DNA from: Candidatus Heimdallarchaeota archaeon
GTDB lineage: Archaea; Asgardarchaeota; Heimdallarchaeia; Hodarchaeales; Hodarchaeaceae
Direction: 5' to 3'
Assembly: GCA_020353515.1 (NCBI GenBank)
Contig: CP070695.1
Coordinates: 666,843-730,842, forward strand
DNA length: 64,000 nucleotides
Part shown: positions 4,795 through 9,055 of the stretch, in pieces
Position numbering within the stretch: the first letter of the stretch is position 1
Layout: each line of letters opens with the position of its first letter
The notes under the pieces: generated by a model
What the model saw: the letters and a program-made list of their open reading frames with translations, nothing else
Told to the model about the DNA's origin: nothing
Databases searched by the model: none
Position numbers and translations under genes: made by a program

Positions 4795-5505
4795 TCAAAC
4801 AATTCTTCGTGATTGGTAATGAACTGACATACAAAGCCATATCATGTCACCTATTCTATCAAATGTTTTGATTTCAAAAAAAGGTGACTCTATAAATGAA
4901 GAAAATGGTATTAATAGATTAAATAGGGGTATTCCTTGACCACAAATTACTGGGGCAAGAGCTAACTGGATTTCATGAAGGAGCTGTAGATTAATTAATT
5001 CACCATTCAAACGACTTCCTCCTTCTACCATTAGCTTCTCAACTTCGAAGTCTGTTTTAAGTTTGAATAGAAGTTGGTGTAAATCTGTTAAGGGCCCCTT
5101 TCCACATTCAATGACCTGACATCCCCTTTTTTCTAGTTTTGATCTTTGATTCAGCGAACATTGAGACGTAGTAGCAATAATGGTCAGAATATCTGGTCTA
5201 TGGGTTATTACTCTTGACTTCAGAGGAATTTTACCATCTGAGCTTACAACAACTCGTATAGGATGCTTATCAATTTCTGTGTCAATCAAGCTTTCATTAA
5301 CAGTCAATTTTGAATCATCAGCTTTAATAGTTCCACTTCCAACCATAATAGCGTCAGAGTCGGCTCTTAATCGATGAACTCGTTTCCAATCATCAGAGTT
5401 GGACAATTGGGTATCCCCCTCGTTTGTAGCAATTTTTCCATCAAGGCTAATTGCTGCCGATAGAAATACAAAAGGACGGGTTTTGGAAGGTTTAGGCAAG
5501 TTCAT
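4795..5505 (-). CDS. arfC: RibD C-terminal-type pyrimidine reductase (2,5-diamino-6-ribosylamino-4(3H)-pyrimidinone 5'-phosphate reductase)
   Basis: RPFV..SAAISLDGKIA, VHRLRA..DAIMVG.GT, LMVEGG motifs; no deaminase domain; start placed at ATG 5505 (ORF track extends to 5523). Confidence 0.8.
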   Translation of the reverse strand: MNLPKPSKTRPFVFLSAAISLDGKIATNEGDTQLSNSDDWKRVHRLRADSDAIMVGSGTIKADDSKLTVNESLIDTEIDKHPIRVVVSSDGKIPLKSRVITHRPDILTIIATTSQCSLNQRSKLEKRGCQVIECGKGPLTDLHQLLFKLKTDFEVEKLMVEGGSRLNGELINLQLLHEIQLALAPVICGQGIPLFNLLIPFSSFIESPFFEIKTFDRIGDMIWLCMSVHYQSRRIV

Positions 5506-6652
5506 TAGAAATAACTTCTCCATGGAAGAGATTAAGAGATATATCCTCTGGAAATTGACATCTGAAGAGTAAATTCAGAATAGGATCGTTTCCAAACGCA
5601 GTTCTGGTGCTTTGAAGATTAACTACTAAAAGATCAGCCCAATAATTTTCTTTGATGCACCCTGTAGATAGTTTTAATGCTTTTGAAGGATTGATTGTAA
5701 TAAATTTTAGCGCATTTGAAGGATTAAATGGAATATTTTGTTCTTTCAATCGTAAAATGAGCCATCGCAATTCTTCTAAGATGTTTGGGGAATTTGACAT
5801 AACATTATCTGTTCCTAGCCCAATTAAATGCGCTTTATTTAGAAAATAATCAATCGGGGGGAATCCTAATCCATAATAGGCGTTGGAACGTGGGCAAAAT
5901 ACAATGAATTTGGAGGTGGGGATTTCTTGGAGTTCATTTTCTTTAAGCTTCGTTAAATGGATAAGAATATCAGGATTTAAGTGATTTAAAGAGACCTGCA
6001 AATCTGAAAGCCCAAAACGTTTTAGGGATTCTTTGATCACCGAAATTTCTTCCCCGATATGCGTTGCTACCAAAACATGTGGAGAAGAAGTTTGATTTCG
6101 AATTGCTTCCATTTCTTTTTGAGAGTAGAGTAGTGGTGTTGCTAATCCCAATCCGTCACATTGAGAAAGTAATGTAGTCAAATTAGCTTCCAAATCTTGT
6201 CGTCCGAGGATATGAAGGTCAATTGGTAAATTTTCTACGGCTTCTCGAAGGACTTTAATTCCTTTTAAACCATTCTCTCTAAAATCGAAACATACCGCAG
6301 TTCCACTCTCAATCATTTCTATTATAGCAGATCTCATTGCAGCTACTCGGCTGACTCTAGGATATTGCTGAATTTGATATTTATGACCTTGAATCCCGAC
6401 AGCTTCATTTAAAGAGAGACCAAAAGCTTGGTTTTTTAAAATAGAGTCACCAAGGTGAGTGTGAGAATTGATAAACTTCGGGAGAAGCAGATGATGTGGA
6501 AATGAATACTCTCCAGGGGCTTCAGAATGGGATGAATTGCTTTTAATATTAGATATTCTACCTTGTTCAATCGTAACCTTTACATTTTGTTTTAGAATTA
6601 AATCGTCTCCGATTAATGCATATTTGCAGAATATATTGTGAGGAATTGCCAT
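5492..6652 (-). CDS. Metal-dependent amidohydrolase (deaminase-like)
   Basis: FINSHTHLGD (HxH), THIGE, IH, CPRSN, LGTDN, ADLLV motifs; overlaps the reductase gene. Confidence 0.85.
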   Translation of the reverse strand: MAIPHNIFCKYALIGDDLILKQNVKVTIEQGRISNIKSNSSHSEAPGEYSFPHHLLLPKFINSHTHLGDSILKNQAFGLSLNEAVGIQGHKYQIQQYPRVSRVAAMRSAIIEMIESGTAVCFDFRENGLKGIKVLREAVENLPIDLHILGRQDLEANLTTLLSQCDGLGLATPLLYSQKEMEAIRNQTSSPHVLVATHIGEEISVIKESLKRFGLSDLQVSLNHLNPDILIHLTKLKENELQEIPTSKFIVFCPRSNAYYGLGFPPIDYFLNKAHLIGLGTDNVMSNSPNILEELRWLILRLKEQNIPFNPSNALKFITINPSKALKLSTGCIKENYWADLLVVNLQSTRTAFGNDPILNLLFRCQFPEDISLNLFHGEVISNELA

Positions 6653-7106
6653 AATAGAGACACATTTCCGAATAATTCAGAGATTCCTATTGAAATGTTA
6701 ATTTGATCTAGCTTTTAATTTCAAATCATAACTATAAATAATGGATCAATATCATCTAAAATCCATTTCTTTCTAGAATGAAATAGAAAACAAAAGCTTG
6801 AAAAATTTACACATCAGGAATATAAAACAATACAGACATCAGAAATTGAAAATACAAGCTTTCAAATGATATTAGGAGGAAGAACTATTTTAATATTTAA
6901 TCTCTGAAAAAAGAAGGATTAGTAATATATATCCATAGATAACAATGAAACTATGGTTGAATCAAACTTTTTCCATACTTTAAACGTGGAATAAATACCA
7001 TAAAGATGTGTGTTATATTAGGAAAAAATAATGAAATCATGTATAAAATTACAAAAATCGTTATAAATCATAACATTTTTATAGCCCCTCAAGAAAAAAA
7101 ATTATC

Positions 7107-7206
7107 TGCCAACTATTTTCACTTGTTGGCAATAGATCACCGAAATTACGTCGGTGTGATACAGTCTGGCTGTATCGGAAAATGAACCCGCATAGGGCGA
7201 TTTTCC
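7107..7206 (+). ncRNA. Candidate structured RNA leader (four adjacent hairpins)
   Basis: Stems tgccaac/gttggca (7107-7131), caccga/tcggtg (7138-7156), gatacag/ctgtatc (7158-7176), ggaaaat/attttcc (7177-7206); TATA-like tttata about 25 nt upstream. Confidence 0.55.
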
Positions 7207-7235
7207 ACTCCAATAAAAGACAAGGAGGTTAATAA

Positions 7236-7448
7236 ATGACAATAGAAATCGAAGAGAATGTAGATCTCCAACATCGGGCTGAATTAGAGCTTTTATGCCC
7301 TTGGTGTCATACTCACACAATTACAACTATTGTAAATCATGGAACACTTCGTTTGAAGTGTAATGAATGTGGTATGGACGCTTTTGTAACCCGAATCCCC
7401 CGTAATAAAAAATTATCCGATTACGTCTCACGAAGATTAATCGCGTAA
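7236..7448 (+). CDS. Small zinc-ribbon protein (Elf1-like spacing)
   Basis: CPWC-x17-CNECG; strong SD ggaggt immediately upstream. Confidence 0.7.
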   Translation: MTIEIEENVDLQHRAELELLCPWCHTHTITTIVNHGTLRLKCNECGMDAFVTRIPRNKKLSDYVSRRLIA

Positions 7449-7503
7449 GATTTTGGGTTTAACCCATGGGAGGAATCGAAATTCTCAAGTTATATAATTG
7501 TGT

Positions 7504-7706
7504 ATGCTCTCTACTTCTCGCTCTGGTCCCTTAAATGATTAATGAGATGGAAGTTGATGATTGAAGCTTTCGTCTCATAATTGAAATTCTACTCTATTGC
7601 TAAATTCAAACCGTGGATTTTGATTGAACTTCAGTATTCAATATCAAGGGATCAACAATCTTTATGATTCAGTCTTCGGATCAAATAAAAGGAAGGAGAG
7701 AGTCAT
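7504..7706 (+). ncRNA. Candidate multibranch structured RNA / structured 3' region
   Basis: Nested stems ctctctacttc/gaaggagagag, tggtccctt/aagggatca, atgagatggaag/ctttcgtctcat, aaattca/tggattt, ttgaa/ttcaa, tgattc/ggatca; G-U pairs favour the + strand. Confidence 0.5.
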
Positions 7707-7738
7707 CAGATCAAGAGGATGAGCTTCAATATTTATTC

Positions 7739-9055
7739 TCAAGCTCTGTCTGGTTGTTTTTTTAGACCTAAGATATTAGCGTAGCCATCCATATCCATGA
7801 AACCATGCCCGCTAACATTAAAAACTATAGTTTTTTTCTCATTCTCTTTTTTACACTTTACTGCCTCATCTATTGCACAGGCAATACTATATGCCGATTC
7901 AGGTGCCGGTAGAAAGCCTTCTGCTTGCACAAACTCTCTAGCTCTTTCAAAAACATATTTTTCATCTTCAGGATAAGCCACTGTGTCAATGTAATTATGA
8001 TGCCTCAATAAACTTAAAATTGGTGCACAGCCATGATATCGAAGACCATCACCTCGGATTGGAACCATTGTTATCTGGTGACCCAAGGTATACATTTTTA
8101 ACATTGGAGTCATTTCAGCGTGGTCTGCAAAATCATACTTGTATTCTCCTTGTAGATTTGGAGCTGCTTTGCTTTGTGAAGCAATGAATTTAATTTCTGT
8201 CTTCTTTGTAAGAACATCATGCATAAAAGGAAGAGCAATACCCCCAAAGTTACTACCTCCTCCAAGACATGAAATTACAATATCTGGATATTCACCAGCA
8301 AGTTCCATTTGAGTTTTTGTTTCAAGTCCAATAATGGATTGATGTAACATAACATGATTTAATACAGACCCAAGGCAATATACTGCGTTTGGGTCTTTCT
8401 TAGCATCTTCTAGCCCTTCAGAAATTGCAATTCCTAATGAACCATTATGATTGGGATCTTCTTTGTATAATTTCTTACCAAATTCTGTTCTGTTGCTAGG
8501 TGATGCATATACATCTGCGCCGTACATCTGCATAAATTTTAATCGTTGTTCTTTCCAACGATAGACAGCTCTAACCCAAAAAATCGTACAATCTAGATCA
8601 TTCAAGCTTGCGGCGTATGCAAGTGCGTTACCCCATTGACCCGCTCCTGTTTCTGTCGTAAGTCGTTCAAATCCTTCTTGTTTTGCGTAATAAGCTTGAG
8701 CTAGGGCTGTGTTAACTTTATGACTGCCTGTTGGGCTATAAAACTCTGATTTATAGAATAATTTTGCAGGGGTTCCTAACTTATTTTCTAGATTTTTTGC
8801 TCTGAATAATGGTCTAGGTCTTCCTGCAGCTAAGAATAATTCACGAATTCCTTCAGGAATTGGAACCCATCGCTGATCTGACATCTCCTGCTTCAAACAT
8901 TCTTGTAAAAGCATATTGGGGAGATCATCAACTCTTGAATACCCTTCAGGGGGATCCTTAGGTGGTGGAAGCGGTTCAGGTAAATCTGGGATAATATTAT
9001 ACCACTTATCAGGTAATTCTTCAGCTTTGAGAATGATTTCTCTATTTGTATTCAT
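7739..9055 (-). CDS. trpB2: TrpB-like PLP enzyme (TrpB2)
   Basis: SPTGSHKVNTA (PLP Lys), TETGAGQWG, GGGSN, PAPES, FNVSGHG. Confidence 0.95.
   Translation of the reverse strand: MNTNREIILKAEELPDKWYNIIPDLPEPLPPPKDPPEGYSRVDDLPNMLLQECLKQEMSDQRWVPIPEGIRELFLAAGRPRPLFRAKNLENKLGTPAKLFYKSEFYSPTGSHKVNTALAQAYYAKQEGFERLTTETGAGQWGNALAYAASLNDLDCTIFWVRAVYRWKEQRLKFMQMYGADVYASPSNRTEFGKKLYKEDPNHNGSLGIAISEGLEDAKKDPNAVYCLGSVLNHVMLHQSIIGLETKTQMELAGEYPDIVISCLGGGSNFGGIALPFMHDVLTKKTEIKFIASQSKAAPNLQGEYKYDFADHAEMTPMLKMYTLGHQITMVPIRGDGLRYHGCAPILSLLRHHNYIDTVAYPEDEKYVFERAREFVQAEGFLPAPESAYSIACAIDEAVKCKKENEKKTIVFNVSGHGFMDMDGYANILGLKKQPDRA

What the first reader, a model, noticed from the sequence alone, without database searches (positions are those of the whole stretch)
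7104..7711. ~600-nt structured RNA region enclosing a small zinc-ribbon ORF
Seen: in an otherwise unstructured AT-rich intergenic area, four nearly abutting hairpins (7107-7206) precede a strong SD and a 70-aa C4 zinc-ribbon ORF. After the stop is a nested multibranch fold (7504-7706) with stems of 9-12 bp containing G-U pairs that work only on the + strand. It does not match tRNA, RNase P, SRP, C/D box or riboswitch motifs I know. Inference: a novel cis-regulated mRNA, a dual-function RNA, or a large ncRNA carrying its own protein partner.
Basis: partly seen in the sequence, partly recalled or inferred. Interest (0 to 1): 0.72.

Follow-up and report, generated by a model that had tools for sequence, protein, structure and literature searches.

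The report
Conserved hairpin leader before zinc-ribbon gene
In one genus of Hodarchaeales (Asgard archaea), a tiny zinc-ribbon gene is always preceded by a ~130-nt run of RNA hairpins kept by compensating mutations, so this is a real, undescribed mRNA leader that probably controls the gene, while the "structure" after the gene is a species-specific spacer.

Summary
The 5' half of the finding is real; the 3' half is not a conserved feature.

**5' leader, 7107-7206.**
- Four abutting hairpins follow a conserved TATA box (7076-7083). They precede an invariant GGAGGU Shine-Dalgarno (SD) site and a 70-aa C4 zinc-ribbon ORF (7236-7448).
- The leader folds far better than shuffles (z -4.8).
- It is present once per genome in 19 of 21 species of the genus, always directly upstream of this ORF.
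- Hairpins H2-H4 are 93% paired across 23 distinct sequences, and 7 pairs show compensatory double changes.
- G-U pairs outnumber A-C by 29 to 4, so the folded molecule is + strand RNA.
- Stems are 85% identical and terminal loops 37%. This argues for recognition by a factor rather than a ligand pocket.
- No Rfam family, tRNA, K-turn or H/ACA features match.

**3' fold, 7504-7706.**
- The spacer varies from 76 to 290 nt between species.
- In the two closest species only 12-13 of its 59 pairs can form.

**Reading.** This is a new, genus-restricted cis-regulatory 5' UTR, most likely a protein-operated translational or stability operator. Its function is untested. First readers of this scan noted the same leader in other genomes of the genus.

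The parts
7040..7053 (+). Operator-like inverted repeat TGTATAAAATTACA, about 23 nt upstream of the TATA box
   Evidence: It is conserved in the orthologues as TGTA(A/T)6TACA-type repeats. The pattern occurs only 3 times in the 4.9-Mb genome against about 12 expected. That it is a binding site is inference.
7076..7083 (+). TATA box TTTTTATA; the predicted transcription start is at about 7104-7110
   Evidence: The motif ACATTTTTATA is invariant in most orthologues. The start site is inferred from the usual archaeal spacing of 22-27 nt and has not been mapped.
7107..7131 (+). Hairpin H1 (7 bp, 11-nt loop) at the predicted 5' end; this is the variable module
   Evidence: Found in the minimum-energy fold. 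Every orthologue has one or two hairpins here, but with different sequences, and most carry an extra hairpin that the window lacks.
7138..7156 (+). Hairpin H2, CACCGA/UCGGUG
   Evidence: 92% of cells are paired, and 2 pairs show compensatory double changes (C-G to U-A in 6 sequences, G-C to A-U in 1).
7158..7176 (+). Hairpin H3, GAUACAG/CUGUAUC
   Evidence: 100% of cells are paired in 23 sequences, and 2 pairs show double changes (C-G to U-A in 8 sequences, G-C to A-U in 2). The loop varies freely.
7177..7206 (+). Hairpin H4: lower stem GGAAAAU/AUUUUCC, a 3x2 internal loop, and upper stem CCC/GGG. It abuts H3 with no linker.
   Evidence: The lower stem is 99% paired with 2 pairs showing double changes. 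The upper stem is 86% paired with 1 such pair.
7208..7229 (+). Pyrimidine tract CUCC (7208-7211), an A-rich spacer, and the SD site GGAGGU (7224-7229)
   Evidence: CUCC/GGAG pairing appears in the minimum-energy fold. It holds in only 74% of cells, has no double changes, and does not occlude the SD more than shuffled leaders do. GGAGGU is invariant.
7236..7448 (+). Gene for a 70-aa C4 zinc-ribbon protein of a small, lineage-restricted family
   Evidence: The start position is conserved while the start codon varies between ATG, GTG and TTG.
7468..7487 (+). Short conserved 3' UTR hairpin, GGGAGGA...UUCUCA
   Evidence: Present in 10-11 of the 12 orthologues that share the convergent TrpB-like gene. 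It is conserved mostly in sequence, with two variants that keep the pairing (L017, L027). The evidence is weak.
7488..7738 (+).

Best explanation
The stretch 7107-7235 is the structured 5' untranslated leader of the mRNA for a 70-aa zinc-ribbon protein. It is a new RNA motif confined, among the genomes searched, to one genus of Hodarchaeales.

Transcription probably starts about 25 nt after the conserved TATA box, at the foot of H1. A variable 5' hairpin module is followed by three sequence-constrained hairpins. H2 is joined to H3 by a single invariant U. H3 and H4 abut with no linker, so they can stack into one rod of about 15 bp. H4 ends 17 nt before the SD.

I think the three hairpins are the docking site of a trans-acting protein, possibly the gene's own product. 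Binding so close to the ribosome-binding site would set translation initiation and/or mRNA lifetime.

Shown here: the structure, its + strand polarity, its conservation, its strict linkage to this gene, and the constraint on stem sequence with free loops. Inferred: the transcription start, that a protein binds, the identity of that protein, and the direction of regulation.

The fold downstream of the stop codon is not part of the element.
For: - Folding: z -4.76 in the window and -2.5 to -5.5 in 8 orthologues.
- MAFFT alignment of 19 orthologues: 92.8% of cells paired against 38-51% when partners are slid by 1-3 columns. Six pairs have double changes. The covariation score is 0.201 against 0.154 for shuffles, reached by 0 of 500 shuffles.
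- With 4 metagenomic copies added: 93.3% paired, 7 pairs and 24 cells with double changes.
- G-U 29 against A-C 4 in H2-H4, so selection acts on + strand RNA.
- The covariance model finds one copy per genome (115.9 bits; the next hit scores 18). It hits 19 of 21 genomes of the genus and no convincing site in 61 other genomes of the class. Every copy ends at the start codon of the zinc-ribbon orthologue. The weak hits precede unrelated genes.
- Stems are 85% identical, terminal loops 37% and third codon positions 54%. Stems are therefore constrained in sequence as well as in pairing, while loops drift freely.
- The promoter is conserved, whereas the flanking intergenic DNA is not alignable even between species whose proteins are 99% identical.
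Against: - There is no transcript evidence, so the 5' end is inferred.
- No protein partner is shown. The best fold matches of the encoded protein are Elf1/ELOF1, an RNA-polymerase-associated factor rather than a known RNA binder.
- The SD is not predicted to be more occluded than in shuffled leaders: unpaired probability 0.22 against 0.30.
- The anti-SD helix is missing in two lineages (L021, L080) and has no covariation.
- All sequences come from one genus. Covariation cells are therefore not independent events, and most pairs never vary.
- A more distant orthologue in the same gene neighbourhood has no such leader.
Confidence: 0.5

Rival explanations
1. The leader is a metabolite- or ion-sensing riboswitch. 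H2-H4 would form the aptamer, and the pyrimidine-rich tract (the 3' strand of H4, RUUUUCC, plus CUCC) would serve as the SD-sequestering expression platform.
For: - The structured leader is long and conserved, and lies just before the SD.
- Alternative pairings exist and are canonical in every sequence: UUUCC or AUUUUC with GGAGG(U), and CCGA of H2 with UCGG at the H3/H4 junction.
- In several orthologues a UCUCC/UUUCC segment can pair either locally or with the SD.
- The gene is always divergent from the arfC/amidohydrolase operon, so a pathway metabolite is a conceivable ligand.
Against: - Apart from one junction U and two A's of the H4 internal loop, the unpaired positions are not conserved. 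Terminal loops are 37% identical, below third codon positions, and the junctions have zero or one nucleotide. No candidate ligand pocket is visible.
- The alternative pairings involve invariant sequences, so they have no covariation support. They are also far weaker than H2-H4.
- SD occlusion is no better than in shuffles.
- No Rfam riboswitch matches.
- The controlled gene is neither an enzyme nor a transporter.
Confidence: 0.12
2. The leader is a passive stability or processing element. The 5' hairpins would simply protect the short mRNA from 5'-to-3' exonucleases, or define a processing site, without a specific regulator.
For: - H1 starts at the predicted 5' end.
- Every orthologue has one or two stable 5' hairpins whose sequence is free to vary.
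- The SD is not measurably occluded.
Against: Protection needs only a stable stem. At a divergence where silent sites are near saturation (54%), the H3 and H4 stems remain almost invariant in sequence and only 7 of 26 pairs covary. Three further hairpins in fixed order and spacing are more than protection requires.
Confidence: 0.15
3. The hairpin region is an independent small RNA of about 100 nt, or the mRNA is dual-function: the hairpins act in trans and the ORF is merely co-transcribed.
For: - The region has its own promoter.
- The 3' strand of H4 carries an invariant U4 run that could cause some premature termination.
- The leader is more conserved than any nearby non-coding DNA.
Against: - It is never found apart from the ORF. 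There is one copy per genome, always ending at the SD and start codon.
- U4 buried in a stem is a poor archaeal terminator (general knowledge).
- No complementary target was looked for or found.
Confidence: 0.1
4. The 'stems' are DNA palindromes: operators for dimeric transcription factors in the initially transcribed region. That would explain conserved half-sites with free spacers.
For: - Half-sites are conserved in sequence and spacers vary, as with transcription-factor operators.
- Folding z-scores are equal on both strands.
- A separate operator-like repeat lies upstream of the TATA box.
Against: - G-U 29 against A-C 4 on the + strand, with G-U at 9 different pairs. DNA palindromes would show no such asymmetry.
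- The inner CCC/GGG stem inside the H4 'spacer' also covaries.
- Three unrelated palindromes abutting with 0-1 nt between them would need three different factors.
Confidence: 0.05

Closest known systems
Autogenous translational operators in mRNA leaders of small RNA-binding proteins. Examples from my own knowledge: bacterial ribosomal-protein leaders, archaeal L1 mRNA sites, and L7Ae binding a K-turn in its own 5' UTR.
   Same: Structured hairpins lie close to the ribosome-binding site of a very small, basic-tailed, zinc-binding protein gene. The element is strictly linked to that one gene, and stem sequences are constrained as expected for protein recognition.
   Different: - Binding has not been shown.
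- There is no K-turn: the H4 internal loop has no tandem G-A pairs, as the sequence shows directly.
- The covariance model finds no resemblance in the 23S rRNA of relatives.
- The protein is not a recognised ribosomal protein. The genome has its own eL42 and Elf1.
Riboswitches and other Rfam cis-regulatory leaders
   Same: The position (5' UTR, ending at the SD), the size (about 100-130 nt) and the presence of covarying helices.
   Different: No Rfam 15 family reaches its gathering score anywhere in the window. There are no conserved loop or junction nucleotides and no supported switch helix.
Elf1/ELOF1 zinc-ribbon transcription elongation factor (for the encoded protein)
   Same: - A CPxC-x17-CxxC ribbon followed by a helix.
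- The best Foldseek hits are Elf1 chains: TM-score 0.53-0.60, probability up to 0.97.
- NCBIfam Elf1 model E 0.011.
- hhalign against the genome's own Elf1 aligns the ribbon.
   Different: - All scores fall below family thresholds: PF05129 is not hit, hhalign probability is 34%, and the Foldseek E-value is 0.09.
- The N-terminus is acidic rather than basic.
- A bona fide Elf1 exists elsewhere in the genome (69 bits).
- There are 4 paralogues per genome.
- The model confidence is only pLDDT 61.

Membership tests
Any Rfam 15 family | The covariance-model score reaches the family's gathering threshold | tested here: not met
   No matches in the 64-kb window at gathering thresholds. A permissive scan of 6650-7800 gave only chance-level hits. 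On the + strand there was SpF61, 28.5 bits against a threshold of 60, located in the 3' spacer. On the - strand there were snR36 and SNORD107.
H/ACA guide RNA (lead from the snR36 hit) | A hairpin with a pseudouridylation pocket plus an ACA box, on the strand that folds | tested here: not met
   The hit scores 22.9 bits against a threshold of 43, with E 0.086, and lies on the minus strand. G-U against A-C counts put the RNA on the + strand. H2 and H3 have no internal pocket, and no ACA is conserved after H4.
tRNA / tmRNA | Cloverleaf detected by ARAGORN | tested here: not met
   No genes found in the window.
K-turn (L7Ae/L30e-binding) leader | A 3-nt bulge followed by tandem sheared G-A/A-G pairs | tested here: not met
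   The only internal loop (H4: 5' GAA/CAA, 3' 1-2 variable nt) is flanked by C-G pairs and has no GA on either strand in any of the 23 sequences.
Riboswitch (generic) | Conserved unpaired nucleotides forming a ligand pocket | tested here: not met
   Terminal loops are 37% identical and the H4 internal loop 60%. Junctions are 0-1 nt long.
Riboswitch (generic) | Mutually exclusive helices linking the aptamer to the SD or a terminator | tested here: inconclusive
   Alternative pairings are canonical in all sequences, but they involve invariant bases. SD occlusion is 0.22 against 0.30 in shuffles.
Ribosomal-protein-type autoregulatory leader | The mRNA site mimics the protein's rRNA site | tested here: inconclusive
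   Model R1 finds nothing in LSU rRNA loci of three relatives (best 8.6 bits). This is a whole-model test only. The SSU was not tested, and the own assembly has no rRNA.
Ribosomal-protein-type autoregulatory leader | The encoded protein binds the leader | not testable with these tools
   No RNA-protein prediction or assay is available here.
eL42 / L44e (the name some sources give the protein) | Pfam PF00935 above its cut-off | tested here: not met
   13.8 bits against a cut-off of 25. The true eL42 is elsewhere in the genome at 56.7 bits.
Elf1 (PF05129 / NF011482) | The family model scores above its cut-off | tested here: not met
   PF05129 is not listed at E <= 0.1. NF011482 scores 15.6 bits against a cut-off of 109. 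The fold resemblance alone is suggestive.

The most novel reading that the evidence does not exclude
An RNA-protein feedback pair specific to Asgard archaea: an Elf1-like zinc-ribbon microprotein binds the stacked H3-H4 rod of its own mRNA leader to set its own level. The alternative version is that the leader is the first riboswitch-like sensor described in Asgard archaea, tied to the neighbouring arfC pyrimidine-reductase operon.
Probability: 0.15. Interest if true: 0.7.

Novelty: new member of a known kind. Interest (0 to 1): 0.42.

Why it matters
Very few cis-regulatory RNA structures are known in archaea. The searches run here (Rfam 15 and two full-text searches) found none described for Hodarchaeales, the Asgard order currently placed nearest to eukaryotes.

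This leader offers a small, well-delimited object with a clear experimental handle: about 100 nt, three covarying hairpins and a 70-aa product. It could be used to study post-transcriptional control in that lineage. It also flags an uncharacterised, multi-copy zinc-ribbon microprotein family, possibly Elf1-related, whose other copies are wired to Lrp/AsnC regulators.

The value is limited because the motif is confined to one genus and its function is unknown.

Tried and rejected
- **Repeat or mobile element.** The leader and the 3' spacer are single-copy in the genome.
- **Leaders on the paralogues.** The three other copies of the zinc-ribbon gene in this genome lack the leader.
- **Wider distribution.** The covariance-model search of 83 genomes of the class gave only 23-29-bit hits outside the genus, in front of unrelated genes. 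A distant orthologue with the same neighbour (RibD_C) has no R1-type leader, and its own leader is not significantly structured (z -1.1).
- **Upstream ORF.** An AUG inside H4 opens a 16-codon frame in the window only. It is not conserved (read).
- **SD sequestration as the mechanism.** Not distinguishable from shuffled leaders.
- **rRNA mimicry.** No R1 match in LSU rRNA of relatives.
- **Suspected withheld sequence in L017.** The 100-N run over the leader is an ordinary scaffold gap. The window's own 'single contig' also consists of about 114 pieces joined by 100-N runs.
- **Protein identity.** Pfam, NCBIfam and PDB sequence searches gave only sub-threshold zinc-ribbon hits to L33, S27e, L44e and Elf1.
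- **Complex prediction.** The Lrp/AsnC protein was tested with its adjacent zinc-ribbon paralogue. The result was no verdict, with score 0.00 against a mark of 0.32, so it says nothing either way.
- **Upstream inverted repeat elsewhere in the genome.** The two other sites lie in unrelated contexts.
- **Literature.** Two searches found nothing on structured RNAs in Hodarchaeales.

Full report
**What is in the sequence**

The window is an AT-rich (36% GC) genome piece of a Hodarchaeales (Heimdall-group Asgard) archaeon. This identification rests on the names that public sources give the closest proteins.

The ORF at 7236-7448 encodes a 70-aa protein with CPWC-x17-CNEC. GGAGGU lies 7 nt before its ATG. 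Upstream is a 580-nt intergenic region of 23-27% GC in which the stretch 7100-7230 stands out at about 40% GC.

They lie at 7107-7131, 7138-7156, 7158-7176 and 7177-7206, followed by a small CUCC/GGAG helix. The energy is -42.5 kcal/mol against -26.3 +/- 3.4 for dinucleotide shuffles (z -4.76). The reverse strand gives z -5.02, as expected for near-perfect palindromes.

**The gene is real and conserved**

A six-frame search of 40 related genomes finds the protein in 20 of 21 genomes of the same genus at 77-99% identity. There are usually 2-4 paralogues per genome, and 4 in this one.

The start position is fixed while the start codon varies between ATG, GTG and TTG. Codon-position identities are 0.85, 0.95 and 0.54.

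The family is tiny. A profile search of 1.84 billion representative proteins returns 16 clusters. Pfam, NCBIfam and PDB sequence searches give only sub-threshold zinc-ribbon similarities to L33, S27e, L44e and Elf1.

The name 'ribosomal protein L44E' that one source gives some members is not supported. The genome has a proper eL42 elsewhere.

An AlphaFold model (pLDDT 61) shows a three-stranded ribbon plus a C-terminal helix. Its best Foldseek matches are Elf1/ELOF1 chains, with TM-score 0.53-0.60 and E 0.09. A profile comparison with the genome's own bona fide Elf1 aligns only the ribbon, at 34% probability. An Elf1-like fold is therefore a lead, not a finding.

**The 5' leader is a conserved RNA structure**

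Aligning 250 nt upstream of 19 orthologues shows four features in order:
- a conserved inverted repeat (TGTATAAAATTACA, 7040-7053);
- a conserved TATA box (7076-7083);
- a variable 5' hairpin module;
- three hairpins with nearly fixed order and spacing, followed by the invariant SD.

RNAalifold recovers H2, H3 and H4 on its own.

On a MAFFT alignment not fitted to any structure, 92.8% of cells form standard pairs, against 38-51% when the 3' partners are slid by 1-3 columns. Six pairs carry compensatory double changes. The covariation score exceeds all 500 column shuffles.

A pattern scan of metagenome contigs added four more copies. With 23 distinct sequences the figures are 93.3% paired, 7 pairs and 24 cells with double changes.

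H3 is paired in every sequence. One lineage has G-C changed to A-G at the base of H4 (L021), and a related metagenomic copy has restored it as A-U (L080).

In H2-H4 there are 29 G-U cells, spread over 9 pairs, against 4 A-C cells. Selection therefore acts on the + strand transcript and not on a DNA palindrome.

Eight orthologous leaders folded singly give z -2.5 to -5.5 and the same three hairpins.

**Distribution**

A covariance model of H2 through the start codon finds one copy in this genome: 115.9 bits, with the next hit at 18 bits. Among 83 genomes of the class it finds copies of 90-121 bits in 19 of 21 genomes of the genus.

Of the two genomes without a hit, one has a 100-N scaffold gap exactly there. 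The other lacks the gene.

Hits of 23-29 bits in other genera or at other loci precede unrelated genes. They are driven by the SD and the A-rich context.

The three paralogues in this genome lack the leader. A distant orthologue from another lineage, recognisable by the same divergent RibD_C neighbour, has neither this motif nor a significantly structured leader.

The motif is thus young and confined to one genus among the genomes searched.

**What the conservation pattern says about mechanism**

Stems of H2-H4 are 85% identical between species. Terminal loops are 37% identical, which is lower than third codon positions at 54%.

A purely structural element would show far more covariation at this divergence. 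A ligand-binding aptamer would show conserved loops and junctions. Here the junctions are 0-1 nt long, and the only conserved unpaired bases are one U between H2 and H3 and two A's in the H4 internal loop.

Helices constrained in sequence, with free loops, are what one expects of a site read by a protein along the helices. H3 and H4 share a continuous strand and can stack into a rod of about 15 bp.

H4 ends 17 nt from the SD, so a bound factor could block or recruit the small ribosomal subunit, or change decay. The most economical candidate is the gene's own small zinc-ribbon product, but nothing here tests that.

The obvious cis mechanism, SD sequestration by the CUCC tract or by the UUUUCC strand of H4, is not supported:
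- that helix holds in 74% of cells with no double change;
- it is missing in two lineages;
- the predicted SD accessibility (0.22) is not clearly lower than with shuffled leaders (0.30).

Alternative pairings exist in all sequences. In orthologues with the extra 5' hairpin, a UCUCC/UUUCC segment can pair either locally or with the SD. These pairings involve invariant bases and so remain possibilities only.

**The 3' side**

The whole spacer 7449-7738 folds no better than shuffles (z -0.62 on the + strand, +0.35 on the - strand).

The stems and their G-U bias are therefore there, but the boundaries were chosen to fit.

Among the orthologues that share the same convergent TrpB-like gene, and in which its end could be located, the spacer is 76 to 290 nt long. 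In the two nearest species (proteins 99% identical), only 13 and 12 of the 59 pairs can form and 30-41 fall in gaps.

Only the first 40 nt or so after the stop codon carry a recurrent motif, GGGAGGA...UUCUCA (7468-7487). It can form a 5-bp hairpin. A second purine/pyrimidine hairpin recurs further downstream in relatives. This may be a 3' UTR or termination signal, but the evidence is weak.

There is therefore no 600-nt RNA unit.

**Known families**

No Rfam 15 family matches at its curated threshold. The permissive scan gives only chance-level hits, including an H/ACA model on the wrong strand. ARAGORN finds no tRNA. There is no K-turn and no conserved upstream ORF. The covariance model finds nothing in 23S rRNA of relatives. 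Two literature searches found no description of such an element.

First readers of this scan independently noted the same leader in at least five other windows from other genomes of the genus. One of them also raised the Elf1 idea. These are unchecked notes and not independent evidence.

**Verdict**

The 5' half is a genuine, previously undescribed, genus-restricted structured mRNA leader. The 3' half is a non-conserved spacer.

The best-supported mechanism is a protein-operated cis-regulatory leader (0.5). Within that, autogenous control by the encoded protein stands at perhaps 0.2-0.3.

The rivals, in decreasing order, are:
- a passive stabiliser (0.15);
- a riboswitch (0.12);
- a trans-acting or dual-function small RNA (0.10);
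- DNA operators (0.05).

Noticed in passing
L030:995-1749 and L031:998-1760 (own genome C1:1545954-1546702 and C1:791812-792571); also L084-L091: Two paralogues of the zinc-ribbon gene sit about 90 nt downstream of a 151-aa Lrp/AsnC-type regulator gene on the same strand. All 10 Lrp genes of this subfamily (>=72% identity) in 9 genomes of the genus have a zinc-ribbon paralogue immediately downstream. This is a conserved two-gene unit of unknown meaning.
   Followed up: partly
L029:1-2207 (own genome C1:2375504-2377710): Another paralogue lies between two divergent aconitase-family large-subunit genes (LeuC/HacA-like). First readers saw the same arrangement in other genomes.
   Followed up: no
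window 4795-7448; L071-L073: The leader-bearing gene is always divergent from the amidohydrolase/RibD_C (arfC-like) operon in the genus. A distant 70-aa homologue from another lineage is likewise divergent from RibD_C. This gene pairing is therefore older than the leader itself.
   Followed up: partly
window 7040-7053: The inverted repeat TGTATAAAATTACA lies about 23 nt upstream of the TATA box. It is conserved across orthologues and rare in the genome (3 sites against about 12 expected). It is a plausible transcription-factor operator. From memory only, it resembles Lrp-type boxes.
   Followed up: partly
whole genome G000: The 'single contig' consists of about 114 pieces joined by 100-N runs (113 runs, 11,231 N). 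It contains no detectable 16S or 23S rRNA gene, so it is a scaffolded metagenome-assembled genome and not a closed genome.
   Followed up: yes
window 7468-7487 and the equivalent sites in L010-L018 and L027: A short conserved motif, GGGAGGA-N6-9-UUCUCA, lies just after the stop codon. A second GAGAG/CUCUC-type hairpin lies 15-20 nt further on in relatives. These may be a 3' UTR or termination signal.
   Followed up: partly
L063:1495-1746 (own genome C1:1467236-1467487): A bona fide Elf1 homologue (83 aa, PF05129 at 69 bits) is present in this genome. It lies directly upstream of a small GTPase-like gene.
   Followed up: no
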